From positions 128,001 to 192,000 of the forward strand of contig CAVSPA010000007.1 of assembly GCA_963729715.1 (NCBI GenBank): a stretch of 64,000 nucleotides of DNA, given 5' to 3'. Below the pieces are notes generated by a model. The model had not been told where the DNA came from and searched no databases. It worked only from the letters and a program-made list of their open reading frames with translations. Of this stretch, positions 44,291-61,065 are shown piece after piece. The DNA is from an uncultured delta proteobacterium (lineage in GTDB: Bacteria > Desulfobacterota > Syntrophia > Syntrophales > UBA2185). Position 1 is the stretch's first letter, and every line of letters starts with the position of its first letter. Both the position numbers and the translations under genes were made by a program.

Positions 44291-45460
44291 ATGGAAAAGG
44301 AAACCTCAAAACCTACAGCCCGGAAGATCATGATGGAATTTGCCCGTCTCACCGGACTGTCATCGTCGAAGGAAAAGCCGCGCCGCTACTTATGGACAGA
44401 TGCGTTTGCCGTCTGCAATTTCCTCACCCTGTACAAGCAGACGAGTGATGAGCGCTACAAGGAGCTTGCCCTCCGCCTCGTCGATCAGGTTCACAACATC
44501 CTCGGACGGCGCCGTGAAGAAGACACATGGATAGGCTGGATCAGCGGTCTTTCCGAGGAAGAGGGAAAACTGCACCCCACGAGCGGCGGGTTGAGAATCG
44601 GCAAGGGAATGAACGAGCGCGGACGCGACGAATCTTACGACGAACAGTTGGAGTGGGACCGCGACGGACAATACTACCATTACCTGACGAAGTGGATGCA
44701 TGCCCTCGCTCGCGTAAGCCGGGTTACGGGAGATTCCATTTACGCGAGATGGGCAATTGAGCTTGCGAAAGCGGTGCATTCCAAGTTTACCTATATTCCG
44801 CTGGCGGGTGGACAGAAACGCATGTACTGGAAGATGAGCATCGACCTGTCCTATCCTCTCGTGTCTTCGATGGGGCATCACGATCCACTCGACGGTCTCG
44901 TCACCTACCTGGAGATCCAGGCGGCGGTGGAAGGTTCCAAGAAATCGAAGGAGCTCGACCTCAGCAAGGAGATCAAAGACATGGCCGATACATGCGAGGG
45001 GAAGAGCTGGGCAACAGATGATCCCCTCGGCATGGGCGAACTCTTGAGCACGGCGTACAAACTGGCCCAGTTGATGACTGACACGGATTCTGAGCAGGAA
45101 GAACTTCTGAATGACCTCCTCGATTCTTCCATCACGGGCTTGCGATTGTTTGAAAGAAGGAATCAATTGAAACTCCCCTCAGAGTGCCGCCTCGCATTCC
45201 GGGAGCTCGGTTTGTCCATCGGCCTGCACGCGATCGAGAGACTGCCGGAGCTGATCAAGCAGTCTCCGCGCTTCAGTGCGAACCCCCGTCTGCAATCACA
45301 GATGAAAGACCTGATGCGCTACGTACCTCTCAGCAACGTGATCGAGGCATATTGGCTTGACGACGCGAACAGACAGGCTGCAGGGTGGACGGGGCATCTT
45401 GATATAAACATGGTGATGCTGGCAACGAGTCTCGCTCCCGAAGGGTATATCTCGTTCTAA
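44291..45460 (+). CDS. Conserved hypothetical all-helical protein
   Basis: 389-aa ORF with strong-looking motifs RRYLWTDAF, DGQYYHYLTKW, RLAFRELG, HLDINMVM. Function not recognised. Confidence 0.7.
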   Translation: MEKETSKPTARKIMMEFARLTGLSSSKEKPRRYLWTDAFAVCNFLTLYKQTSDERYKELALRLVDQVHNILGRRREEDTWIGWISGLSEEEGKLHPTSGGLRIGKGMNERGRDESYDEQLEWDRDGQYYHYLTKWMHALARVSRVTGDSIYARWAIELAKAVHSKFTYIPLAGGQKRMYWKMSIDLSYPLVSSMGHHDPLDGLVTYLEIQAAVEGSKKSKELDLSKEIKDMADTCEGKSWATDDPLGMGELLSTAYKLAQLMTDTDSEQEELLNDLLDSSITGLRLFERRNQLKLPSECRLAFRELGLSIGLHAIERLPELIKQSPRFSANPRLQSQMKDLMRYVPLSNVIEAYWLDDANRQAAGWTGHLDINMVMLATSLAPEGYISF

Positions 45461-45631: not shown

Positions 45632-45667
45632 GGGGTATATGACCCCCAGTGGGGGTAATATTACCCG
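45632..45667 (+). promoter_or_regulatory. Tandem enhancer (UAS) sites, GGGG-N7-CCCC type
   Basis: GGGGTATATGACCCC (45632) and GGGTAATATTACCCG (45653), 21 bp apart and 63 bp upstream of the sigma54 box. Confidence 0.6.
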
Positions 45668-45730: not shown

Positions 45731-45746
45731 TGGCATCAGTATTGCT
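45731..45746 (+). promoter_or_regulatory. Sigma54 (-24/-12) promoter of the hydrogenase operon
   Basis: TGGCAT-CAGTA-TTGCT matches TGGCAC-N5-TTGCW. Confidence 0.8.
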
Positions 45747-45903: not shown

Positions 45904-47703
45904 ATGTGGAAGACCACTATCCAGGGAGAGGCGTCTGTGGAGCCTGCCATCAAGCAGTGTCTCGCACCGTGCCAGGAGCGATGTCCCATCAACGAGGATA
46001 TCCAACGCACAAACGTCCTCATCTCCTTGCTGCCGGAGGATATCGAGCAGGCCAAAGAGGGCCTGATACAGATCGGGGATTATCTTTTTGAAAATAACCC
46101 TCTCTTCCCCGTGTGCGGCTATGTCTGCGGTATATGCGAACTGGGTTGTAATTACCAGAGCAAGGGGGGGTCCATCAGAAGAAGGCTCTTGAAGCGGTTT
46201 GTATCTGATTATTTTTTAAATCACCTCGATGAGAAAAAAGAATACGACGTCGTTAAGGACAAGGGAAACGTGGCCGTCATCGGCGGGGGCCCGGGCGGGC
46301 TGATGTGCGCCTTTCACCTCGGCAGAAAAGGCTACAGAGTGACTATCTTCGAGGCCTCGGGCAGACTCGGAGGAGCGCTCTGGCTGATCCCTCATTATCG
46401 CCTCCCCAAGATAGTACTGCAGAGGGTCATAGAAAACATGCTGCGGGTGGCCGGTGTGGAAGTAAAATACAATTCGAGGATCGGCGAGGGGAATCTCACC
46501 CTCGATAAACTAAGGAAGGACGGCTACAAGGCGGTGTTCATCGCTAAAGGGACGCCCACACCGAGGGTACTCACCTTTGGTCGGGAGATGGTGGAGAACC
46601 AGGATTTGGATGGCGTCATGTATGGGCAAACTTTTCTCTATGAGGTGAGTCGAGGCATCCTCGTGAAAGATTACCTGGGCGAAAAGAAGGTTATCGTCAT
46701 TGGCGGCGGCAACGTGGCCTTTGATGCGGCACGATCAGCCAAGAGGTTGGGTGGAGATGTTACACTGGTGGCCCTCGAAAATGAGGACAAGTCCTCAAAG
46801 GACGGTATTCCCGCAGACCACGAGGAAATCCGGGGCGCCTGGGAAGAAGGCATAAGGATCACCTACTCTCGCGGTGTAAGTAAAATATTGGGCGAAGAAG
46901 GAAGATTCACTGGTATTGTCTCTCCTAAATGCACGGGCGTCTTCGATAAGGAGGGCAGGTTCAATCCGGAATTCGACACCGGCGACACCGTCACCATGAA
47001 CGGCGATGCCCTTATCATCACCGTCGGCCAAGGGCCGGATCGGGCGTTTCTTCAAGGAGAGGGCCTATTGGATGAAAATGGGCGGCTGGCTGTGGATCCA
47101 CTCACCCTCCAGAGCAGCAACAAAGAATGGGTTTTCGTCGGCGGCGACGTGCGAAGGGTAGGCTTTATGGTGGATGCTATGAGGGAAGGCCAGGAGGCCG
47201 CCGAGTCCATTGAGCGTTACCTCAAGGGAATCGATATCAGGGCTGGCAGGAAAAAAGAATTTGAGGCATTCGATATACCGGCCCTAAAGGATGAAGACTA
47301 CAGGTCTGAGCCCGAAGTAGTATGGATACCGGCAGAGAAGCGCGTACACTTCCAGATGTTTGAGAAAGGCTTCACCCTCAAAGAAGCCATCGAGGAAGCG
47401 AGGCGCTGTCTCTGCTGCGGCCCCTGCGTGTCGTGCAAGGCATGTATATCCATCGGTATGCAGGACGAACTGCCGTCTGTTGTTGTTCATGAGCACCTCT
47501 GCAGCGGATGCGGGATATGTGTATCGTCCTGCCATTACGGCGCGGCCTATCTCAAGGAGCAGGTCGGCCACCTTGTATCCGCAACCGACATATTCAGATG
47601 CAAGGCCTGCGGTATGTGCGTATCAGCCTGCCCGGCCGGCGCCAGAGAACTGATCGGCTCCGACATGGAAGAACGTATCGCCGAGGTCTATGCCTCGCTT
47701 TAA
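45904..47703 (+). CDS. GltD/NfnB(SudA)-like FAD/NAD(P)H oxidoreductase with C-terminal ferredoxin domain
   Basis: N-terminal Cys clusters PCQERCP and CGYVCGICELGC, GGGPGG, GGGNVAFDAAR, GGD, EARRCLCCGPCVSCKAC and two CxxCxxCxxxC motifs. Confidence 0.85.
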   Translation: MWKTTIQGEASVEPAIKQCLAPCQERCPINEDIQRTNVLISLLPEDIEQAKEGLIQIGDYLFENNPLFPVCGYVCGICELGCNYQSKGGSIRRRLLKRFVSDYFLNHLDEKKEYDVVKDKGNVAVIGGGPGGLMCAFHLGRKGYRVTIFEASGRLGGALWLIPHYRLPKIVLQRVIENMLRVAGVEVKYNSRIGEGNLTLDKLRKDGYKAVFIAKGTPTPRVLTFGREMVENQDLDGVMYGQTFLYEVSRGILVKDYLGEKKVIVIGGGNVAFDAARSAKRLGGDVTLVALENEDKSSKDGIPADHEEIRGAWEEGIRITYSRGVSKILGEEGRFTGIVSPKCTGVFDKEGRFNPEFDTGDTVTMNGDALIITVGQGPDRAFLQGEGLLDENGRLAVDPLTLQSSNKEWVFVGGDVRRVGFMVDAMREGQEAAESIERYLKGIDIRAGRKKEFEAFDIPALKDEDYRSEPEVVWIPAEKRVHFQMFEKGFTLKEAIEEARRCLCCGPCVSCKACISIGMQDELPSVVVHEHLCSGCGICVSSCHYGAAYLKEQVGHLVSATDIFRCKACGMCVSACPAGARELIGSDMEERIAEVYASL

Positions 47704-47744
47704 GGATAAATATCCTGGAAATCAGAATAGCGGGAGTAGCAAAA

Positions 47745-48371
47745 ATGGGAACATCCAAATTGACAATCACGCATCCTGAGATTTCACACACTTCTCTGAA
47801 TGCATACTTATCGCGTAGAGCCCCCGAAAGGGTGAAATTACGGATAGCTATCCTGCAGGGTGTCATGGACAGAGTGCCCATAAATCACCTGAGTCGGCGG
47901 CGCAAGATGTCCCGGCAGGGTATCTATAATCTTGTTGACCGCATAAACAGAGAAGGTTTGCGGGGTATCGAGGATCAACATCTCGGTCGCCCCGGCAAAC
48001 TGACGGCAGACATCGCTGAAGATCTGAAAGAGACATTAATCCATTCACCGCTGGATCAGGGGTACGCGCAGCTACGCTGGGACAACTCGCTCGTAAGAAG
48101 GTATCTGAGAGAGAGGCACGGGATCGACATAGGCCGCGCTCAACTCATTAACTGGCTGCACGCGATCGGCACCCCTGTGAAACTGGCCCGGAAGAAGTAT
48201 GAGAAGGCAGCTTCCGAAAGAAGAAGATCATTCGTTGATTATCTGAATCAGCTGGCAGATAGGATCACCCTCTTGGGGGATGAAGCAGGCGCTCAATTAG
48301 ACGTAGAGCTTATTGCCCAGTGGGCGCCGGAAGGATGCCCACCACATTTGTTCACGGGCAGCATACGGTGA
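47745..48371 (+). CDS. IS630-family transposase-derived helix-turn-helix protein lacking most of the DDE domain
   Basis: SRQGIYNLVDRINREGLRGI, GRPGKL, SPLDQGY..RW, LHAIG, LLGDEAG, QWAPEG then stop. RBS GGGAG before ATG 47745. Confidence 0.75.
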   Translation: MGTSKLTITHPEISHTSLNAYLSRRAPERVKLRIAILQGVMDRVPINHLSRRRKMSRQGIYNLVDRINREGLRGIEDQHLGRPGKLTADIAEDLKETLIHSPLDQGYAQLRWDNSLVRRYLRERHGIDIGRAQLINWLHAIGTPVKLARKKYEKAASERRRSFVDYLNQLADRITLLGDEAGAQLDVELIAQWAPEGCPPHLFTGSIR

Positions 48372-48444
48372 CATGATAATCTCAAGGGAAATGCGAGTAT
48401 TCTGATGAATGGGTATTATGAAAATAGTGCACGAGGAGGACGAT

Positions 48445-48840
48445 ATGAAGGAGTTTACCCCCAAGCTTGTATGCTTCTCCTGTAAGTTCGGGTGGGGCTA
48501 TTTGAATGGCAATGGCTATGCGAAGAAGCTGAAGAACGTTATCCCCGTGGCTTGCAGCGGCAAGGTGGATGCCACACATATCATCGATGCTTTCAAGGAA
48601 GGGGCGGACGGCGTGTTAATACTGGGCTGCGCCGACAAGGAATGTCATTTTCAGACCGGCAACTACCAGGCGAGAAAGAGGGTCCTTCTATTGAAGAAAA
48701 CGCTTAAAGAATTCGGCATCGCGCCCGGCCGACTCAAGATAGCCCTCAGTCTCGACCCGGAAGGCACGAAGATCCCCGTCTTCATCGAGGAGATGAAAAA
48801 AGAGGTTGAGAGTTTGGGACCTCTTTCCATCAGGGCGTGA
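48445..48840 (+). CDS. mvhD: Hydrogenase iron-sulfur subunit MvhD/FlpD
   Basis: FSC, VACSGKVD, AFKEGADGVLILGC..KECHFQTGN. RBS GAGGAGG. Confidence 0.85.
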   Translation: MKEFTPKLVCFSCKFGWGYLNGNGYAKKLKNVIPVACSGKVDATHIIDAFKEGADGVLILGCADKECHFQTGNYQARKRVLLLKKTLKEFGIAPGRLKIALSLDPEGTKIPVFIEEMKKEVESLGPLSIRA

Positions 48841-48925
48841 ATCGGCGACTGATGATGAAACATTCGAAAATATTCTTTTTGTGTCATTCCGAAGCGCGAA
48901 GCAACGAGGAAGATTGGAGGATAAT

Positions 48926-49903
48926 ATGGCAGAGAAACCCAAGGTGGCAATTTACTGGCTCGCATCCTGCGCAGGCTGCGATGAGGCCATAGTGGATCTG
49001 AACGAAGTTATTCTGACGGTCGCCGATGCCGTGGATATTGTGCTATGGCCTGTTGCCCTAGACTTCAAGTATGAAAGCATCCGCAAGATGAAAAAGGGAG
49101 AGATAGCCCTTTCCATCCTTCACGGGTCTGTGCGTAATTCCGAGCAGGAAGAGATGGCCAAGCTCCTCCGGGAAAAATCGCAGCTCGTGCTGGCTTTCGG
49201 CGCTTGTGCCTGCTTCGGGGGCACGGCGGGACTGGCGAACTTCATTTCAAAAAAGGATATCTTCGACTGGGTCTACCAAGACGCGCCGACAGTAGTGAAC
49301 CCGAACAATAACAGGCCTCAGACGGAAACGAAAGTCAACGGAAACAAGCTGACTCTTCCAGATTTTTTCGACCGGGTTTATCCCCTCCACGATATCATCC
49401 ATGTAGACTATTACCTGCCCGGATGCCCCCCGCCACCGGAACTTATAGCAAACGCGGTCTTCGCCGTCCTCGAAGACAAGCTTCCTCCGCGAGGCGCGAC
49501 ACTCGCACCTACCAAGCCTCTGTGCGACACATGTCCACGGAACAAATCCAAGCCGCTCAAGATGGAGATATCGGAGTTCAAGAGGATACACGAGATTGAA
49601 GCGAAGGATGACCAGTGTTTTCTCGCACAGGGCGTCCTCTGTATAGGGCCTGCGATCCGTTCAGGGTGCGGAGAAACATGCATCAGAACCAATGTTCCCT
49701 GCAGGGGTTGCTTCGGTCCTGTCGACGGTGTGGATGATGCAGGCGCGAGATTCATCTCCGGATTGGCATCGCTCATCGGCGCAGAAAGCGAGGCGGAAGC
49801 TGAAAAAAGCATCGCAGGGATTGCCGACCTGGCAGGTTACTGTTACCGCTTCAGTCTCCCGAGGGCGTCGCTCAACAGAAAGAGCAAGAATAAGGAGAAA
49901 TAA
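48926..49903 (+). CDS. mvhG: F420-non-reducing [NiFe]-hydrogenase small subunit
   Basis: ASCAGC, GACACFGG, LPGCPP, LCDTC, CFLAQGVLCIGP, CRGCFGP. Confidence 0.88.
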   Translation: MAEKPKVAIYWLASCAGCDEAIVDLNEVILTVADAVDIVLWPVALDFKYESIRKMKKGEIALSILHGSVRNSEQEEMAKLLREKSQLVLAFGACACFGGTAGLANFISKKDIFDWVYQDAPTVVNPNNNRPQTETKVNGNKLTLPDFFDRVYPLHDIIHVDYYLPGCPPPPELIANAVFAVLEDKLPPRGATLAPTKPLCDTCPRNKSKPLKMEISEFKRIHEIEAKDDQCFLAQGVLCIGPAIRSGCGETCIRTNVPCRGCFGPVDGVDDAGARFISGLASLIGAESEAEAEKSIAGIADLAGYCYRFSLPRASLNRKSKNKEK

Positions 49904-49905
49904 CC

Positions 49906-51366
49906 ATGGCACGAAAGATAACGATAGACCCGATAACCAGGCTTGAAGGACACGGCAAGATAGAGTTGCTTCTCGATGATCAGGGGAACGTAAAGGATGC
50001 CTACTGGCAGGTGGCCGAGTTGCGCGGGTTTGAGCGCTTCTGTCTCGGCAGACCCGCGGAAGAAATGCCGAGGATCGTGCCCAACATATGCGGAGTGTGT
50101 CCTTCGGCGCACCACATGGCCGCCACCAAGGCCCTCGACGACCTCTACAGTGTCGAGCCCACACCGGCGGCAAGACTGATCAGGGAACTCGAATTCAACG
50201 CCTTCTATATCGAGGACCACTACATCCACTTCTTCTTCCTCGCGGCGCCCGATTTCGTCGTCGGCCCGCACGCCGACCCGAAAGAGCGAAACATCCTCGG
50301 CGTTATCGGCAAGGTGGGCAAGGAAATAGGACTCAAGGTAATTGAAGTGAGAAAGAGAAACCGGGACATCATCCGGCACATCTTCACCAAGGCGCCGCAC
50401 CCAGAAGGCGGGCTGCCCGGCGGCGTACCGAGGGGATTTACCGAGCAGGACAGGAAATGGGTCAAGGACACCGCCGTCTTTTCTCTCGACTTCGCCAAGT
50501 TCGCGATCCAGCTCTTCAAGGACGTAGTTCTCAAGAATAAGTCCTACGTGGATCTCATCCTGAACGATGCCTATAAGCTCAAGACTTACTACATGGCCCT
50601 TGTGGATGAAAACGACAAGTCAGTCTTTTATGACGGGCAAGTCAAGGTCATCGATCCTGAAGGCAAAGAATACGTGAGATTCCACCCCCGCGACTACGAT
50701 CAGTATATCGGTGAATGGGTGGAGCCGTGGACATACATCAGGCTCAACCACTTAAGACAGCTTGGCTGGCATGGGCTCAAGGAAGGCAACGGCACATCGC
50801 TGTACCGCGTCGCACCGCTCGCCAGGCTCAACGTAGCCGCCGCCATGCAGACCCCGCTTGCGCAGAAAGAAGCGGAGATCATGTTCGATACTCTGGGAGG
50901 CAAGCCCGCCCATCATACGCTCGCCACGCACTGGGCGCGGCTCATCTGCGCGCTTCAGGCTGCGGAAAATAATGTGCTCATCGCGGATGAACCTCTGCTT
51001 ACCAGCAAGGATATCAGAAACATGAACCTCAAGCTCAAAAACAAGGGCGTGGGCTGTGTGGAGGCGCCGCGTGGAACCCTTTTTCATCATTATGAGACGG
51101 ATGACGAAGGCATACTGACGAAGGTCAACCTCATCGTGGCTACGCAGAATAATGCCGCCCCCATCTGCCTGTCTGTAAAGAAGGCCGCCCAGGAATTCGT
51201 CCATGGGCCGGATGTGAAGGAAGGTTTCCTGAACATGGTAGAGATGGCATTTCGGGCCTATGATCCCTGTCTCTCCTGCGCGACACACTCTCTGCCCGGC
51301 ACGATGCCGCTCCAAGTTAAGATCAGGGATCACGCGGGCAGAGTGATAAGGGAAATAAGCCGCTGA
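49906..51366 (+). CDS. mvhA: [NiFe]-hydrogenase large subunit, group 3c (MvhA type)
   Basis: TRLEGH, ELRGFERFC, ICGVC, EAPRGTLFHHY, AFRAYDPCLSCATH plus a cleavable C-terminal extension. Confidence 0.9.
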   Translation: MARKITIDPITRLEGHGKIELLLDDQGNVKDAYWQVAELRGFERFCLGRPAEEMPRIVPNICGVCPSAHHMAATKALDDLYSVEPTPAARLIRELEFNAFYIEDHYIHFFFLAAPDFVVGPHADPKERNILGVIGKVGKEIGLKVIEVRKRNRDIIRHIFTKAPHPEGGLPGGVPRGFTEQDRKWVKDTAVFSLDFAKFAIQLFKDVVLKNKSYVDLILNDAYKLKTYYMALVDENDKSVFYDGQVKVIDPEGKEYVRFHPRDYDQYIGEWVEPWTYIRLNHLRQLGWHGLKEGNGTSLYRVAPLARLNVAAAMQTPLAQKEAEIMFDTLGGKPAHHTLATHWARLICALQAAENNVLIADEPLLTSKDIRNMNLKLKNKGVGCVEAPRGTLFHHYETDDEGILTKVNLIVATQNNAAPICLSVKKAAQEFVHGPDVKEGFLNMVEMAFRAYDPCLSCATHSLPGTMPLQVKIRDHAGRVIREISR

Positions 51367-51438
51367 TAGATGGCAGGCTTGGAAGAATGTATATGTCATC
51401 CCTTCACGAAGAAGGGACGTCGGAGGATGGAATTAACA

Positions 51439-51924
51439 ATGAAGACGCTTATCCTCGGCATGGGCAATCCCATACTGTCGGATGACGGTGTGGGGTTGGT
51501 CCTTGCGGAAAGGCTCCGGAATAAAATTCACGGGGCGGATGTCGCAGCAAGCGCCATCATCGGCCTTTCCCTCTTCGATTTAATCATGGGCTACGATACT
51601 CTCTTCATCATTGATGCAATGACCACGAAAGAAGGACAAGTGGGAGGACTCAAGAAGATCGGCGCGGATGACCGCTGCGGCACGCTGCATCTCTTTTCTT
51701 CACACGGCTTCAATATCTTTGATCTTATGGAACTCGGCCTGCAATGCGGTTTTGAGATGCCCTGTCTTGCCGCTGTCTACGGTGTCGAAATAGGTAGTGA
51801 GGTAGCCTTCGATGAGAGTCTTTCGCAGGGGCTCCATGAAAAAATTCCCGCCATAGCCGCAGAGCTTATCGATGATATGACGGCAATCCAGCGATCACTA
51901 TCCGCCGCTGCGGCGACCAGTTGA
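51439..51924 (+). CDS. Hydrogenase maturation protease
   Basis: LGMGNPILSDDGVG, IIDA, SSHG. Start 51427 or 51439. Confidence 0.9.
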   Translation: MKTLILGMGNPILSDDGVGLVLAERLRNKIHGADVAASAIIGLSLFDLIMGYDTLFIIDAMTTKEGQVGGLKKIGADDRCGTLHLFSSHGFNIFDLMELGLQCGFEMPCLAAVYGVEIGSEVAFDESLSQGLHEKIPAIAAELIDDMTAIQRSLSAAAATS

Positions 51925-52094: not shown

Positions 52095-52127
52095 AAAGAG
52101 CGGTGTTCGAGAAAGCACCGCTCTCTT
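52095..52127. repeat. Hairpin; inverted copy of the hairpin at 53047-53080
   Basis: AGAGCGGTGTT-N7-GCACCGCTCT. Confidence 0.6.
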
Positions 52128-55987: not shown

Positions 55988-57118
55988 TCATGATAGAGCC
56001 TCAGGAAGTTTCTCCACCCTCGGATGGGGGACGGGGAATTTCAATATACATGTTGTGCCTTCACCTTCTTTCGATGTGGCCCTTATTTCCCCGCCATGGG
56101 AATCCATGATCTTCTTACAAAAAGTCAATCCGAGACCAGACCCTTTGTGGCGTTCTTCCTTGCCCCCTGCTCTGAAAAACGGCTCAAAGATAAAGGGGAG
56201 CTTGTCCTCGGGAATGCCAATTCCTGTATCCGAAATGTCCACAATAACATAGTACTCATCGTTCCGGGCAGAAACAGATATTTTGCCGCCATCCTGCGTA
56301 TATTTTGTTGCATTGCCTATGATATTGATGAATACCCTGACCAAACTTTCCTCATCACCGACAATTTGGAATAAATTCTCCGGAACATTTACCTCAAATG
56401 TAATTCCTCTTTCGTTACAAATAGGCATCATTTCCTCGGCGCTGCGGAAAATTACGTCTGATAACCTCAAGGGCTCTTTCTTTTGTGCAAAGGTACCGTT
56501 TTCTATCCGGCTGAGATCCAGCCAGTGTTCAATCAATTCTTCAAGCTTCTGGACGCGAGCGCTGCATCTCTCAATAAGGTCCGAGACGTCTTTATCGAAG
56601 CGATCACCTGTGACCGCTTTCAGAGATTCCATGCATTGTCTGATGACGACCAGAGGGGAACGCATTTCGTGGCTCACGAACGTAATGAAATGCCTCTCCA
56701 TCCGCTCCTTTTCTTCCCTTAATACTCTTGTCTCTATCCTGAGGTTGCGGTGCTCAAGACCTCGTCTGGCCACAGCCCTCAACTGGTCAGGACTGAACGG
56801 TTTCGGGAGATAGTCGTAGGCCCCTTTCTGTATGGCTTCTACGGCAGAGACTATGGTTGCATAGCCGGTAATCATGATAAGAATGACGTCAGGTATATCC
56901 CTGGAGAGGATCTCAATTATTTCCATGCCCGATATACCCGGCATTTTAAGATCCACAAAGGCTATGTACGGTTTATTCTCCCTCGCGATCTTGATGCCTT
57001 CGACCCCTTCCCCCGCAGTCAAGACGGCATACCCCGACCTTTCCAGCGTCTGCCTGCATCCATCCCGCAGGGATTCCTCATCATCGATGATCAAAATGAG
57101 AGGTTTCTGAGCATTCAT
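55988..57118 (-). CDS. Hybrid receiver-histidine kinase (REC-HisKA-HATPase)
   Basis: IIDDE, VDLKMPG, SHEMRSPL, NATKYT, DTGIG, GSGLGL. Confidence 0.92.
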   Translation of the reverse strand: MNAQKPLILIIDDEESLRDGCRQTLERSGYAVLTAGEGVEGIKIARENKPYIAFVDLKMPGISGMEIIEILSRDIPDVILIMITGYATIVSAVEAIQKGAYDYLPKPFSPDQLRAVARRGLEHRNLRIETRVLREEKERMERHFITFVSHEMRSPLVVIRQCMESLKAVTGDRFDKDVSDLIERCSARVQKLEELIEHWLDLSRIENGTFAQKKEPLRLSDVIFRSAEEMMPICNERGITFEVNVPENLFQIVGDEESLVRVFINIIGNATKYTQDGGKISVSARNDEYYVIVDISDTGIGIPEDKLPFIFEPFFRAGGKEERHKGSGLGLTFCKKIMDSHGGEIRATSKEGEGTTCILKFPVPHPRVEKLPEALS

Positions 57119-57126
57119 TTTGCTAA

Positions 57127-57513
57127 TTACTTGCCCAGCGCCTGGGCAATATATCCAAGGAGGTCATCAGCCTTGACCGGTTTATGCAGTACCTTGTTCA
57201 CCTTGGGAAACTCGGCCGGCGGTTCGAACGACTGGTACGGGCCCTGCAAGTCCACAGCGCTCAACATGAATAGCGGCGTATCCTTCCCGGTATCTGTGGC
57301 ACGGATTTTTTTCAGTACTGAGAAGCCTTCACCCCATGTCTCCATCATCATATCGATAATGGCAAGGTCTGGGGTCACGGATTTCCACATCTCAACTCCG
57401 CTCTTGCCGTCTTCTGCTAAGAACACCTCGTACCCGCCCTTTTCAAGAATCAGTTTGGTGGCGAATAGAAAATCTTTGTCATCGTCTATCAAGAGAATCT
57501 TTTTCTTTGTCAT
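57127..57513 (-). CDS. Single-domain response regulator
   Basis: LIDDD, IDMMM, LSA, KPV. Confidence 0.9.
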   Translation of the reverse strand: MTKKKILLIDDDKDFLFATKLILEKGGYEVFLAEDGKSGVEMWKSVTPDLAIIDMMMETWGEGFSVLKKIRATDTGKDTPLFMLSAVDLQGPYQSFEPPAEFPKVNKVLHKPVKADDLLGYIAQALGK

Positions 57514-57552
57514 CGTTCATTACCTCCATTCTTGATTTTTGTAATTAATATG

Positions 57553-57568
57553 AGCAAGGATGATGCCA
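57553..57568 (-). promoter_or_regulatory. Sigma54 (-24/-12) promoter
   Basis: Minus strand TGGCAT-CATCC-TTGCT. Confidence 0.8.
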
Positions 57569-57573
57569 GATTG

Positions 57574-57586
57574 TAACTTATTGATT
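57574..57586 (-). promoter_or_regulatory. IHF binding site
   Basis: AATCAATAAGTTA matches WATCAANNNNTTR and lies between the UAS and the sigma54 box. Confidence 0.65.
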
Positions 57587-57631
57587 TATAAAGAAGAAAT
57601 ATGGAGAGTAGTAGGAAAGGCGGACATTTGA

Positions 57632-57667
57632 GGGGCGAAACTCCCCCTCCCTGAGGCGGATAACCCC
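57632..57667 (-). promoter_or_regulatory. Tandem enhancer (UAS) sites, GGGG-N7-CCCC type
   Basis: GGGGCGAAACTCCCC (57632) and GAGGCGGATAACCCC (57653), 21 bp apart and 63 bp from the sigma54 box. Confidence 0.6.
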
Positions 57668-57684
57668 TTGCGGCAATGTTTTTT

Positions 57685-59040
57685 CTAACGATGCTCCATC
57701 TTTATACCGTAATTGCGCATTTTTATCCGGAGAGTCTTCCTGTCAATACCGAGGAATTTTGCCGTCTTGTTGATCTGGAAGTGAAAGTGGTTGAGGGCCT
57801 TTAGTATGTGTTCCTTTTCCACATCTATCAGAGTCATCCTGCCGGTGGAAGAATCCACCACAGGGGCTTTTGCGTGATCTTCCTGACCATAGTAAAATAT
57901 ATCAGACAGGTTAACGACCTCATGGTCGCACAGCACACACAGACGCTCGACGATGTTCTTTAGTTCCCGGATATTACCGGGCCATCTGTATGATACGAGC
58001 GACTTCTTCGCCTCTTCCGAAAATGATCGCACCTTGCTTTCGTACTTCGTTATGAATATATTAAGGTAATGGTGGGCTATGGGGAGGATGTCGGCTTTAT
58101 GTTCTCTCAGTGGTTTTATGGGGAGAGGCACGACGGAAAGCCTGTAAAATAGATCCTCCCTGAACCTCCCCGCTTCGATTTCTGCGCGGATATCCTTATT
58201 CGTTGCAGCAATCAGCCTGACATCTATCCGTTCCGGTGACGATCTGCCAACCTTGGGCACCTCCTGTTCCTGAATTACCCTAAGCAGTTTCGCTTGGATG
58301 TTGAGGTTGATGTTGGAAATCTCGTCAAGAAATAATGTTCCCTTATCTGCCATCTGGAAACGGCCCTCACGCGACTCCGTAGCGCCGCTGAATGCCCCTT
58401 TGACATGTCCGAATAATTCACTCTCCATGAGGGTCTCTACCAGAGAGGAACAATCGACGGGAATGAAGGGTTGATTGGCTCTCTTGCTGAGATTGTGGAT
58501 GGTGCGCGCCACAAGTTCTTTTCCCGTACCGCTTTCTCCTGTGATGAGGACGGTACTGTCGGTTTGTGCTATCCGGTTGATGGATTCCTTAAGCTCTTTC
58601 ATATAGTCGCTCGTGCCGAATAGCAGGGACAGTCTCTTATCCGCATTGCCCTCGTCCCGCTTGAGGGCATCCTCGACAACGCGATTCAGATCGGCTGCGG
58701 AATAGGGCTTCGTCAGGAAATTGAAGGCGCCCTGCCTCATTGCCTCAACGGCAATGGAGATGCTGCCATAGCCGGTGATAACAATGATTCTTGCGGAGAT
58801 GTTTCTTTCGACTTTCAGCTTTGCGAGAATCTCCAGTCCATCCATCTTGGGCATCCGGATATCCAACAGGATCACATCATAGATATCCTTGAGGGCCATC
58901 TCAAGCCCCCGAGGCGCATCTCCCGTGCATGCCACCTGGTACCCCTTGCGCGACAGCACTTGTGTGCACGCATCCCGCATGGATTCCTCGTCATCAATAA
59001 TCAGAATCTTCTTATTTTTCGAAGTCACTGTTTCCGTCAC
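57685..59040 (-). CDS. Sigma54-dependent NtrC-family response regulator
   Basis: REC domain, [46 protein letters not shown], Fis HTH. Confidence 0.95.
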
Positions 59041-59091
59041 CCTTCTTATTTTATAGAATTAACTGTAAAACACATCTTCGTCCATGCCACT

Positions 59092-61065
59092 TTATCTGCC
59101 CGGATATGCGGGAAGGGAGATAATGAAAGTCGCTCCCTTTCCGGGCCTGCTTTCCGCATCGATGATGCCATTGTGCTTCCTGATGATGCCATAAACTATG
59201 GGAAGTCCAAGGCCCGTCCCTTGGCCGGGTTCCTTTGTTGTAAAGAAAGGTTCGAAAATATGTGGGAAATCTTTTTCTTCTATTCCTTTGCCGGTGTCTG
59301 CGATCAGGATCTTCACTGAATTGTCGGCACCCTGCATAGTGGTAATCGTTAACGTCCCTCCGCCTTTCATGGCATCGGCGGCATTGATGAAGAGATTCAG
59401 AAATACGTCTTCCAGCCTGGACTTGTCGCCCATGACTTCAGGAAGGTTTTCTGCGAGATGGGTGTTTATTTCTATGCCGTGGAACATTACCTGGTCCTTT
59501 ACCAGACTGAGGGAACTCTCAATGACGCCGTTTATATGGAAAGGCAGCATCTCGCCTGTCGGCGTCCGGGCAAAGTCAAGCAGGCTCTCGACGATCCTCT
59601 TTGACCTGTTCGTCTGGTAAATTATCTTCTGCATATTTTCCCTTGCAGGAGAATCTTCCGGAATATCTTCGAGAACGAGGTTGCTGTAAAGGAGTATACC
59701 GCCCAGCGGGTTGTTTATCTCGTGGGCCACACCTGCCGCCATTTCACCCAGTGCCGTGAGCTTCTCCGTCCTGGCCAGTTGCTGATGAGCCCTGTGAAGC
59801 ATTTCATTGTGATTCTTTAGGGATTTCGACATATAATTGAACGCCTCATCAAGCATGTCAAATCCAGACATTTTGTCAGGCGATAATTTATAATCGAGAT
59901 TGCCGGCGGCTATAGACTCCGCGGCCTCCTTCAGCATGCGTATGCGTTTTATTATGGTGTCCCCCAGTCTAAATGAGATGATAAAGGCGATGATCATGCC
60001 GAGAGATGTAATACCCAGGTTGATCCAGATGGTATTCCATTTTATGTCTCTGTACTTTGCCTCCAGAATGCCCACATAGAGCGCCCCTATGAGCTTCTTC
60101 TCTATGTCGTAGATGGGGGTATAGGTGGTTATGTACCAGTCATTAACTACGAATGCCCTGCCGACCCAGTCTTTGCCTTCCACTATGACCCTGTCATATA
60201 CTTCCTTGGACAACATAGTGCCGACGGCCCTCTCGTTGTCTTTCGTCATAACGTTGGTGGATATTCTCACCCCACCCTGAAATATGGTTGCCACACCCAT
60301 TTCACGGCCCTTATACTTTTCACCCTGGTATACGGTTTCCTTTATCTTGTCCACAATCTCATAGTCCTTGTTAAGGAGAACCCCTCCGATTATAGCGCCG
60401 ATTAATCTCTTACTCCCATCAAGAATAGGATATGCTGCCATCATTACCATGCCGCGGGAGAGTCGCTTCTCACTCGATTCAAAAGAGAGAGGAGTTTTTA
60501 TGATTTCTATCCCGACCCGCCCGGCAAGATTAGGGTTTTCCCTGATGATATCATCGATGGGTATGAGTTCCGAAGATGCCTGCGTAGATTTCTTTTCTAT
60601 GCAGTTTTTCACAACTGGCTCCCAGAGCATACTGTCTCCCCTTATTTTCGGGTTCGCCGCCCTGTAGAGGACACGCCCTTGGGCATCGACGACCAAAAGG
60701 ATATCGAGGAACACGTCACCGTCCTGGGCCTGCGTCCCTCCCTCATGCCGGATTAAGCCTTTCAGGTTCTCCATTTTGGGGATGTCATGGCTGGCTATCG
60801 TTGTATGCAGGTTTACCGCTTCTGCCGCAAATTCAATCTGGGAAGTTATCTTTTCCAGCGTCACTCTGTAGATTAGTTTTGCTGTATTGATGTCTTGTCT
60901 GACCCGGTTTTGCACTTCGTCTATTGTACTCTTATTAATTGTCCATATGCCGATGACGGTGGCTGTGAGCCCGGTGATACATGTTGCAATCAGGAATCCC
61001 ACTATCAGGCGGCGCCGGAGATCGAGCTTGAAAAGTTGACTCACCAGCCTGTCGACAAATTTCAT
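59092..61065 (-). CDS. Membrane sensor histidine kinase (Cache + HAMP)
   Basis: Two TM helices, periplasmic ATIFQGGVRISTNV...YTPIYD Cache domain, AHEINNPL, NAADAM, GTGLGL. Confidence 0.93.
   Translation of the reverse strand: MKFVDRLVSQLFKLDLRRRLIVGFLIATCITGLTATVIGIWTINKSTIDEVQNRVRQDINTAKLIYRVTLEKITSQIEFAAEAVNLHTTIASHDIPKMENLKGLIRHEGGTQAQDGDVFLDILLVVDAQGRVLYRAANPKIRGDSMLWEPVVKNCIEKKSTQASSELIPIDDIIRENPNLAGRVGIEIIKTPLSFESSEKRLSRGMVMMAAYPILDGSKRLIGAIIGGVLLNKDYEIVDKIKETVYQGEKYKGREMGVATIFQGGVRISTNVMTKDNERAVGTMLSKEVYDRVIVEGKDWVGRAFVVNDWYITTYTPIYDIEKKLIGALYVGILEAKYRDIKWNTIWINLGITSLGMIIAFIISFRLGDTIIKRIRMLKEAAESIAAGNLDYKLSPDKMSGFDMLDEAFNYMSKSLKNHNEMLHRAHQQLARTEKLTALGEMAAGVAHEINNPLGGILLYSNLVLEDIPEDSPARENMQKIIYQTNRSKRIVESLLDFARTPTGEMLPFHINGVIESSLSLVKDQVMFHGIEINTHLAENLPEVMGDKSRLEDVFLNLFINAADAMKGGGTLTITTMQGADNSVKILIADTGKGIEEKDFPHIFEPFFTTKEPGQGTGLGLPIVYGIIRKHNGIIDAESRPGKGATFIISLPAYPGR

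What the first reader, a model, noticed from the sequence alone, without database searches (positions are those of the whole stretch)
45904..51924. Mvh-type [NiFe]-hydrogenase paired with an NfnB/GltD-ferredoxin fusion instead of HdrABC: candidate new electron-bifurcating or NAD(P)-linked hydrogenase
Seen: one operon encodes a GltD/NfnB-like flavoprotein with a C-terminal 2x[4Fe-4S] ferredoxin domain, followed by mvhD, mvhG, mvhA and a maturation protease. No hdrA, hdrB or hdrC lies in the window. Established: group 3c MvhAGD normally docks via MvhD onto HdrA, and NfnB carries the bifurcating FAD of NfnAB. Inference: the first protein replaces HdrA, with its ferredoxin tail as the MvhD docking site, coupling H2 to NAD(P)H and possibly ferredoxin. 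This would suit a syntrophic fatty-acid oxidiser that must dispose of electrons as H2.
Basis: partly seen in the sequence, partly recalled or inferred. Interest (0 to 1): 0.78.

Follow-up and report, generated by a model that had tools for sequence, protein, structure and literature searches.

The report
Mvh hydrogenase with NADH-flavoprotein partner
An uncultured anaerobic bacterium carries genes for a methanogen-style nickel-iron hydrogenase whose usual partner is replaced by an iron-sulfur flavoprotein, so it most likely swaps electrons between hydrogen and NADH without splitting them, and the same gene set also holds a tamed transposon gene that nobody has studied.

Summary
The operon is real. 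A whole 599-aa GltD-like flavoprotein (FP) precedes mvhD in 76 of 76, mvhG in 72 of 72 and mvhA in 69 of 69 related loci with room. It is naturally fused to MvhD in 56 near-full-length proteins, and its tail matches best the HdrA C-terminal domain. So it most likely replaces HdrA. Bifurcation is not supported: FP has the StnC-type lysine instead of NfnB Glu126, lacks Arg333 and has no nfnA; loss of the NADP-binding arginine pair points to NAD(H). Best reading: a soluble, non-bifurcating H2:NAD+ oxidoreductase (about 0.6). It lacks most of the DDE domain, is under purifying selection and persists after the hydrogenase genes are lost. A conserved sigma-54-type promoter lies upstream. This scan found the same cassette before in other genomes; the notes shown to me do not mention the fusions, the promoter or the tamed transposase. 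No complex prediction was available and nothing is shown biochemically. Verdict: new variant of a known kind, interest 0.55.

The parts
45632..45667 (.). Two tandem imperfect palindromes, putative upstream activator sites for a sigma-54 activator
   Evidence: Located; aligned and conserved in close relatives; a second copy with the same promoter lies on genome contig C5. Function inferred.
45731..45746 (+). Sigma-54-type -24/-12 promoter site (TGGCATCAGTATTGCT)
   Evidence: Pattern found upstream of FP in 22 of 25 loci at 71% or more identity and 1 of 53 more distant loci; 0.46 expected from shuffles over all 78. rpoN present. Consensus recalled; function inferred.
45904..47703 (+). FP: 599-aa circularly permuted GltD/StnC-type FAD, [4Fe-4S] flavoprotein with an HdrA-like C-terminal 2x[4Fe-4S] domain
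   Evidence: Pfam/NCBIfam; PDB sequence hits; 120 homologues, 119 of them 590-615 aa; model pLDDT 74, top fold matches NfnA/StnC.
47745..48371 (+). Domesticated IS630-derived helix-turn-helix gene, 208 aa, truncated shortly after the first acidic residue of the DDE domain
   Evidence: HTH_32 over cut-off, IS630 model under cut-off; dN/dS 0.11-0.25; no terminal inverted repeats; own clade apart from DDE-bearing copies.
48445..48840 (+). mvhD, [2Fe-2S] connector subunit; four ligand cysteines kept, Cys16 of HdrA-linked MvhD lost
48926..49903 (+). mvhG, 325-aa small subunit with the long C-terminal cysteine region of MvhG (Hox-type small subunit of this genome is 187 aa)
49906..51366 (+). mvhA, [NiFe] large subunit with intact L1 and L2 cysteine motifs and C-terminal extension
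51439..51924 (+). Hydrogenase maturation protease
   Evidence: TIGR00072 over cut-off.
52097..52124 (+). Terminator-like hairpin after the operon
   Evidence: Strongest stem of 9 sites found, 5.6 expected by chance; weak evidence.
55988..61065 (-). Two-component cluster with a sigma-54 (NtrC-type) response regulator, candidate activator of the operon
   Evidence: Pfam; the activator orthologue lies within 10 kb of FP in 10 of 80 loci, all among the 25 closest. Link inferred.

Best explanation
The operon encodes a soluble, reversible, non-bifurcating H2:NAD+ oxidoreductase made of MvhA, MvhG, MvhD and FP. H2 is split at the [NiFe] site of MvhA. Electrons run in one line through MvhG, MvhD and the HdrA-derived ferredoxin tail of FP, then through a three-cysteine bridging centre and two StnC-type clusters to FAD, which exchanges a hydride with NAD(H). 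In effect the input arm of Mvh-Hdr is kept, and the bifurcating HdrA core is replaced by a pyridine-nucleotide module. Shown here: genes, order, conservation, fusions, residues, trees. Inferred: the complex, the order of clusters, NAD over NADP, absence of bifurcation, and direction in the cell. Transcription is probably sigma-54-dependent, and in this family a tamed IS630 DNA-binding protein is co-transcribed (inferred).
For: FP is whole: 119 of 120 best homologues are 590-615 aa, and the genome's HdrL is complete, with its own mvhD. Order FP-D-G-A holds in 76 of 76, 72 of 72 and 69 of 69 loci, with 50 nt or less between FP and mvhD in 68 of 76. FP and this MvhA occur in the same 8 of 22 family genomes. 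56 of 66 proteins join more than 500 residues of FP to MvhD in one chain, and 6 of 6 fused loci fetched are followed by mvhG-mvhA. The tail profile scores 60.1 bits on the HdrA C-terminal domain against 34.1 for the best MvhB domain; that HdrA domain forms the mobile arm with MvhDGA (PMC13580544). FP-linked MvhA form one clade (0.996) among Hdr-linked MvhA. Against bifurcation: Lys97 at NfnL Glu126 (116 of 120), Asp305 at Arg333 (119 of 120), no long NfnB N-terminus, nfnA-like gene in 1 of 80 loci and far off. These are the marks of non-bifurcating StnC/NfnA and Fnor proteins (PMC10482914, PMC12018979, PMC12221290). Top fold matches are NfnA/StnC. MvhD Cys16 is lost in 74 of 74 FP-linked and 6 of 6 fused copies. 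For NAD: the Arg324/Arg325 pair of NfnL is replaced by Leu291/Glu292 (Glu in 120 of 120).
Against: No biochemistry, expression data or complex model. The second Rossmann motif is GxGxxA in 120 of 120, which two papers read as NADP-type, and three fused relatives keep the arginine pair. Arg166 (NfnL Arg201) is invariant, though StnC has it too. MvhD keeps its four ligand cysteines and FP has an unexplained invariant Cys508/511/514 triad, so a side branch is possible. Hdr-type genes do lie beside some copies: hdrCBA starts 128 nt after the protease in 1 of 6 fused loci (L190), an hdrA pair lies about 1.7 kb past the protease in L035, and an HdrD-like gene lies upstream on the same strand in L038, L069 and L071. 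The genome also has a Hox-type hydrogenase, so an NAD-linked enzyme would be partly redundant. Fold Z-scores of StnC-type and NfnL-type chains differ little (35-33 against 32).
Confidence: 0.6

Rival explanations
1. The complex bifurcates or branches: H2 reduces NAD(P)+ and ferredoxin together, with the FP flavin or the MvhD [2Fe-2S] and Cys508-514 centre as the branch point.
For: Arg166 at the bifurcation arginine is invariant. MvhD keeps its cluster ligands. FP has more clusters than a plain diaphorase needs. The host shows no RnfC over cut-off and no [FeFe] hydrogenase, so other ferredoxin links would be useful.
Against: Lys instead of Glu126, Asp instead of Arg333, no NfnA partner to give a second branch. 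No HydB/NuoF-type module in the operon. The homologous StnC and NfnA flavins do not bifurcate.
Confidence: 0.14
2. Same linear enzyme, but specific for NADP(H): a biosynthetic H2:NADP+ reductase.
For: GxGxxA in 120 of 120 and invariant Arg221 at NfnL Arg253. All solved close homologues use NADPH. Three fused relatives keep the arginine pair.
Against: Glu292 in 120 of 120 sits where NfnL has Arg325; Arg382 is kept in only 44 of 120. Reading an acidic residue there as NAD-type is recalled general knowledge, not tested for this family.
Confidence: 0.13
3. FP-MvhDGA is only the input arm of a larger complex completed in trans by HdrA, HdrBC or HdrD-like proteins, as in HdrL-Mvh systems, with DsrC or another disulfide as second acceptor.
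For: The genome has hdrA, hdrL, CCG-domain genes and dsrA. Hdr-type genes lie beside a few copies. The sister MvhA lineage is HdrL-linked.
Against: hdrA lies within 10 kb in only 3 of 80 loci; in two it is on the other strand with its own mvhD. The genome's Hdr clusters have their own mvhD. FP already supplies the HdrA-type tail, and this MvhD has lost Cys16, which lies on the path to the HdrA flavin.
Confidence: 0.09
4. FP is a co-regulated but separate enzyme (for example a ferredoxin:NAD(P)+ reductase) or a fragment of an HdrL, and forms no complex with Mvh.
For: Stand-alone GltD-like Fnor enzymes exist. FP has the GltD part plus tail of HdrL.
Against: Uniform length, strict order, joint loss and fusion to MvhD.
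Confidence: 0.04

Closest known systems
MvhADG-HdrABC, [NiFe] group 3c (PDB 5ODC, 9SW2, 9SFI)
   Same: MvhA, MvhG, MvhD and an HdrA-type C-terminal 2x[4Fe-4S] domain; MvhA nests among HdrA-linked MvhA.
   Different: No HdrA bifurcating core, HdrB or HdrC in the operon; a GltD/StnC-type module instead; MvhD lacks Cys16.
HdrL (type III HdrA with inserted GltD domain) with mvhD or mvhADG (PMC2702500, PMC5947623, PMC12054007)
   Same: GltD-like NAD(P)H domain, the same lysine-type cluster, a CxxCxxC half motif after the GltD domain, a C-terminal ferredoxin domain followed by mvhD. The sister MvhA lineage is HdrL-linked.
   Different: HdrL keeps the HdrA N-terminal and FAD domains (1100-1500 aa); FP has neither. 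The GltD-domain tree did not place FP next to a particular HdrL, so descent by deletion is not shown.
StnC / NfnA module of StnABC and NfnABC (PDB 8OH5, 9N5U, 9BOV)
   Same: Permuted GltD fold, lysine at the proximal cluster, conserved arginine; best sequence and fold matches.
   Different: StnC binds NADPH and feeds a HydBC-type bifurcating core through a NuoG domain; FP lacks both and has an acidic residue at the 2'-phosphate site.
NfnB (NfnL) of NfnAB (PDB 5JCA, 4YLF)
   Same: Same fold, about 32% identity, Arg201 kept.
   Different: Glu126, Arg333, the arginine pair, the long N-terminus and the upstream nfnA are all missing. The genome has a separate true NfnB next to an NfnA-containing gene.
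HoxFUYH, [NiFe] group 3d NAD-reducing hydrogenase (PDB 5XF9) and NiFe-HydABCSL (PDB 7T2R)
   Same: Probably the same net reaction as Hox; 7T2R is the top sequence hit of MvhA (363 bits against 340 for 5ODC).
   Different: Hox uses a NuoF-type FMN module and a one-cluster small subunit (recalled); here FAD in a GltD fold, long MvhG and MvhD. Hox-type large subunits fall outside the clade.
IS630 family transposase (active relatives in L115, L123, L137)
   Same: 48-58% identity over the DNA-binding region.
   Different: Most of the DDE domain and the terminal repeats are gone; one fixed site per genome; purifying selection.

Membership tests
[NiFe] group 3c (Mvh) hydrogenase | Large subunit with L1/L2 cysteine motifs, grouping with Mvh rather than Hox large subunits | tested here: met
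   Motifs intact; clade nested among 18 HdrA-linked and 1 HdrL-linked MvhA, none of 13 Hox-type inside. Top PDB hit is however 7T2R, and VhuA is under cut-off.
[NiFe] group 3c (Mvh) hydrogenase | MvhG and MvhD subunits encoded beside mvhA | tested here: met
[NiFe] group 3c (Mvh) hydrogenase | Formal HydDB class | not testable with these tools
   HydDB is not on hand.
Bifurcating MvhADG-HdrABC | HdrA with bifurcating FAD domain, HdrB and HdrC as partners | tested here: not met
   None in the window; hdrA within 10 kb in 3 of 80 loci. Hdr genes elsewhere in the genome have their own mvhD. Partnership in trans is not excluded.
NfnB (NfnL), bifurcating | Glu126 ligand of the proximal cluster | tested here: not met
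   Lys in 116 of 120, Glu in 4.
NfnB (NfnL), bifurcating | Arg201 near FAD N5 | tested here: met
   Arg166 in 120 of 120; also present in non-bifurcating StnC.
NfnB (NfnL), bifurcating | Arg333, extended N-terminus and upstream nfnA (criteria of PMC12221290) | tested here: not met
   Asp305 in 119 of 120; the N-terminal cysteine segment is permuted to residues 480-505; nfnA-like gene in 1 of 80 loci, about 9.6 kb away.
HdrL / type III HdrA | GltD domain inserted in an HdrA that keeps its N-terminal and FAD domains | tested here: not met
   FP aligns only with the GltD insert and the C-terminal ferredoxin domain.
StnC/NfnA-type GltD module | Permuted GltD fold with lysine at the proximal cluster | tested here: met
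   model aligns with 8oh5_C over residues 17-505, Z 32.9, rmsd 3.6, 429 aligned.
StnC/NfnA-type GltD module | NADPH specificity and NuoG domain | tested here: not met
   No NuoG domain; arginine pair replaced. Specificity itself was not measured.
Electron-bifurcating enzymes | Coupled reduction of a low- and a high-potential acceptor | not testable with these tools
   Needs an assay.
IS630 insertion sequence | Complete DDE domain | tested here: not met
   DDE_3 found in the active relative L115 but not in the window ORF.
IS630 insertion sequence | Terminal inverted repeats | tested here: not met
   30-34 nt repeats in L123 and L137; none around the window ORF.
IS630 insertion sequence | N-terminal helix-turn-helix region of IS630 type | tested here: met

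The most novel reading that the evidence does not exclude
FP-MvhDGA is a third, separately assembled design of soluble H2:NAD oxidoreductase, built from the Mvh-Hdr input arm plus a StnC-type flavin module, and it has a second exit: the retained MvhD [2Fe-2S] or the three-cysteine centre passes electrons to ferredoxin, giving H2-driven coupling of NAD and ferredoxin with neither an HdrA flavin nor a HydBC core. In this family the operon has also captured an IS630 DNA-binding domain as a host regulator.
Probability: 0.14. Interest if true: 0.85.

Novelty: new variant of a known kind. Interest (0 to 1): 0.55.

Why it matters
Genome surveys that see mvhADG usually infer H2-driven, Hdr-linked bifurcation. 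This clade sits in uncultured Desulfobacterota, Dehalococcoidia, Acidobacteriota and others, and would instead link H2 directly to NADH, which changes energy budgets drawn for sediment and peat anaerobes. The host has no [FeFe] hydrogenase match, so this may be one of its routes for NADH-H2 exchange. A fused FP-MvhD is listed for the cultured Syntrophorhabdus aromaticivorans, which makes the idea testable. It is also a natural cut-down of the Mvh-Hdr arm, useful for asking what MvhD does without HdrA. The IS630-derived gene is a well-supported bacterial case of transposase domestication.

Tried and rejected
Split HdrA/HdrL fragment: rejected. Direct descent from a particular HdrL: the GltD-domain trees (154 and 161 sequences; 12 of 166 dropped as too short) did not resolve it. 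The single-chain model has pLDDT under 50 at residues 1-21, 76-91 and 502-519, so it says nothing on cluster ligands. Expression: no RNA holder listed among 9 runs; four DNA runs gave only short pieces. Sigma-70 scan: 4 sites against 5.6 by chance. The HTH gene as a dedicated hydrogenase regulator: weakened, since it stays when the hydrogenase genes are gone and is missing from 71 of the 76 loci where FP and mvhD are both seen. The HTH gene as a decaying IS: rejected. MvhD His68 as a marker: absent in 71 of 71 parsed FP-linked copies but also in 6 of 16 HdrA-linked ones, so weak. Rank correlations of identities between subunits (0.60-0.76) are not used as evidence because kin are not independent. 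Atlas searches added nothing beyond Pfam. Literature: ten searches showed no paper on this cassette or on a bacterial IS630-derived regulator; the id I tried for the 2011 sulfate-reducer comparative review was not held. Syntrophobacter fumaroxidans Mvh1 is described with an FAD/NAD-binding subunit; I could not check whether it is this family.
Full report
1. What is there. On the + strand lie a 599-aa flavoprotein (FP, 45904-47703), a 208-aa ORF (47745-48371), mvhD (48445-48840), mvhG (48926-49903), mvhA (49906-51366) and a maturation protease (51439-51924). FP has Fer4_20, Pyr_redox_2 and a C-terminal 2x[4Fe-4S] domain. The genome's own HdrA, HdrC, HdrD-like and NfnA proteins find nothing in the window. 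The closest named relatives of FP come from Syntrophales genomes.

2. FP is whole and tied to Mvh. Of the best 120 of 7010 homologues (65-97% identity), 119 are 590-615 aa. In the best 80 of 208 genome loci, FP is followed by mvhD in 76 of 76, mvhG in 72 of 72 and mvhA in 69 of 69 loci with enough sequence; 68 of 76 have 50 nt or less between FP and mvhD. In the host family, FP and this MvhA are found in the same 8 of 22 genomes. The genome has a complete 1124-aa HdrL and further hdrA genes, each cluster with its own mvhD, a true NfnB, a Hox-type and a group 1 hydrogenase. hdrA lies within 10 kb of FP in 3 of 80 loci, an HdrD-like gene in 5 and an nfnA-like gene in 1. Some of these are on the same strand and close (L035, L038, L069, L071) and count against a clean 'no Hdr' picture.

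3. Evidence for contact with MvhD. A search of cluster representatives returned FP relatives with a C-terminal MvhD domain. A follow-up search gave 66 proteins; all match both FP and MvhD, and 56 match more than 500 residues of FP. One cluster holds a protein named for Syntrophorhabdus aromaticivorans; I did not see its gene context. In 6 of 6 genomes with a fused gene, mvhG and mvhA follow at once; in one of them hdrCBA follows the protease, and in one Flx-like genes precede FP. A profile of the FP tail scores 60.1 bits on the C-terminal domain of HdrA and 34.1 on the best MvhB domain. [quoted passage not shown] All 18 parsed of 21 MvhD from Hdr-type loci show the cysteine (one was mis-registered by the script and read by eye).

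4. The hydrogenase. MvhA has intact L1 and L2 motifs. In a FastTree tree of 106 large subunits, 71 (65 FP-linked, 5 from fused loci, 1 at a contig end) form a clade with support 0.996. Its sister is an HdrL-linked MvhA (1.0), it is nested among 18 HdrA-linked ones, and none of 13 Hox-type sequences falls inside (the node that separates Hox shows only 0.35 after re-rooting). MvhG and MvhD trees agree in outline with weaker support. The top PDB hit is the NiFe-HydABCSL large subunit, just ahead of MvhA. I file it as Mvh-type (group 3c by ancestry); HydDB could not be run.

5. Bifurcation and nucleotide. Counting residues along the alignments with 5JCA, 8OH5 and 9N5U: NfnL Glu126 is Lys97 (116 of 120; Glu in 4), as in StnC Lys170 and NfnA Lys165; Arg201 is kept (120 of 120); Arg333 is Asp305 (119 of 120); the N-terminal segment with Cys42/45 is moved behind the FAD domain (residues 480-505). 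StnC and NfnA flavins do not bifurcate (PMC10482914, passages and section 8; PMC12018979, passages). PMC12221290 (outline and sections 5, 14, 16, 17) names a long N-terminus, Arg333 and an upstream nfnA as marks of NfnB; FP has none. The model (pLDDT 74, pTM 0.70) matches NfnA/StnC first (Z 35.1-32.9) and NfnL just behind (Z 32.0, rmsd 3.1, 400 aligned); the gap is small. For the nucleotide, NfnL Arg324/Arg325 are Leu291/Glu292 (Glu in 120 of 120) and Arg382 is kept in 44 of 120, which points to NAD (general rule recalled). Against this, the motif is GxGxxA in 120 of 120, read as NADP-type in PMC12054007 and PMC7483475 (passages). Twenty cysteines are invariant or nearly so. They fit two StnC-type clusters, two tail clusters and a spare Cys508/511/514 triad that matches the half ferredoxin motif after the GltD insert of HdrL. 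Its fourth ligand is unexplained.

6. How it most likely works. H2 to [NiFe] to MvhG to MvhD and the FP tail, then the bridging centre, two clusters, FAD and NAD+, in one line and reversible. At the low H2 pressures of syntrophy, NADH alone can drive H2 formation, as recalled for ferredoxin-independent [FeFe] enzymes of syntrophs; at higher H2 the enzyme would make NADH. The host has 27 acyl-CoA dehydrogenase matches, dsrA over cut-off, no [FeFe] hydrogenase match and no RnfC over cut-off (completeness 100%, contamination 6.5%), so both directions are plausible.

7. The inserted gene. The 208-aa ORF is 48-58% identical to active IS630 transposases that have a DDE domain and 30-34 nt terminal repeats. 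The window copy ends shortly after the first acidic residue of that domain and has no such repeats. It sits between FP and mvhD in 5 of the 80 loci, all Syntrophales, and matches in 11 of 21 other family genomes, 9 of them near full length. dN/dS is 0.11-0.25 over 15 pairs (FP 0.03-0.08, protease 0.07-0.27), with dS of the same order as its neighbours. In three genus relatives and in metagenome loci it stays at the same site while FP, mvhDGA and the protease are gone, still at dN/dS 0.11-0.33. 32 copies without DDE form a clade (0.987) that holds none of 20 DDE-bearing copies. It is therefore a domesticated DNA-binding protein. A regulator is the likely role (inference), but not one tied to the hydrogenase.

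8. Promoter. A sigma-54-type site (45731-45746) and two tandem palindromes (45632-45667) lie upstream. The site occurs in 22 of the 25 closest loci and 1 of 53 distant ones, 0.46 expected, and directly before the HTH gene in the five hydrogenase-less loci checked. An NtrC-type regulator lies at 57685-59040 and within 10 kb of FP in 10 of 80 loci; rpoN is present.

9. Literature and novelty. Ten searches showed no study of this cassette. Nearest in print: HdrL (PMC2702500, PMC5947623, passages), type III HdrA beside mvhADG with a proposed NADH link (PMC12054007, passages), and an S. fumaroxidans Mvh1 with an FAD/NAD-binding subunit (PMC5947623, PMC8691401, PMC10787695, passages), which I could not compare. 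Passages of PMC5736913, PMC6085437, PMC5606693 and PMC10579272 added only background. The library lacks most subscription papers, and I read no supplements; genome papers on Syntrophorhabdus and the 2011 sulfate-reducer review (recalled, not seen) may mention it. Earlier notes of this scan describe the same cassette in other genomes and reach the same reading; a word search found no note on the domesticated gene. All parts are known folds and the likely reaction is that of Hox, so this is a new variant of a known kind. Interest 0.55; 0.85 if it proves to branch electrons to ferredoxin (probability about 0.14).

Noticed in passing
window 47745-48371; L162-L164, L098, L101, L106: The IS630-derived HTH gene stays at the same genomic site in relatives that have lost FP, mvhDGA and the protease on both sides of it, directly behind the sigma-54 site in the five checked; dN/dS 0.11-0.33 there. 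Its target is unknown.
   Followed up: yes
G000:C5 about 90157-91800, minus strand: A second copy of the sigma-54 site and palindromes precedes a small operon; its orthologues in L002 are an RsbRD_N-like protein and two cyclic-nucleotide-binding proteins, there lying 5-7 kb from FP. Probably the same regulon.
   Followed up: partly
L185 (G590:C200:5228-9998): A fused FP-MvhD is paired with MvhG and MvhA that group with an HdrA-linked operon (L228), not with the FP clade: the FP-MvhD module seems exchangeable between Mvh lineages.
   Followed up: partly
P0174, P0380, P0381: Fused relatives whose middle part carries the arginine pair typical of NADP binding: a possible natural NADP-type variant.
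   Followed up: partly
P0171: FP relative fused to a C-terminal response-regulator receiver domain, as earlier notes of this scan described.
   Followed up: partly
P0188, P0197, P0214, P0229, P0232, P0233: Other, more distant GltD-ferredoxin-MvhD fusions (35-40% identity to FP) fall elsewhere in the tree, so the architecture may have arisen more than once. Their gene context was not seen.
   Followed up: no
P0327, P0330, P0338, P0349: Proteins of about 250 aa with only the FP tail plus MvhD; real split forms or gene-calling artefacts.
   Followed up: no
G000:C5 185236-195326 (L152): 2-oxoacid:ferredoxin oxidoreductase genes followed by hdrL, mvhD, an HdrD-like gene and an hdrA-mvhD fusion broken by one in-frame stop, possibly selenocysteine.
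   Followed up: partly
G000:C11 28498-36224 (L158): NuoE, a NuoF-GltD fusion, a NuoG/NfnA-like fusion and a true NfnB in one cluster: an unusual Nfn/Bfu hybrid.
   Followed up: no
G000:C7 498710-500879: dsrA over cut-off in a Syntrophales-like genome, so the host may reduce sulfite.
   Followed up: no
L030, L039, L041, L042, L044, L046, L050, L051, L062, L064, L080: In these loci, mostly Dehalococcoidia, a Hox-like hydrogenase operon with a NuoF-GltD fusion lies next to the FP-mvh operon.
   Followed up: no
window 44291-45460: 389-aa protein with a weak, under-cut-off GH127-like match, kept at this site in the genus; not part of the operon.
   Followed up: no
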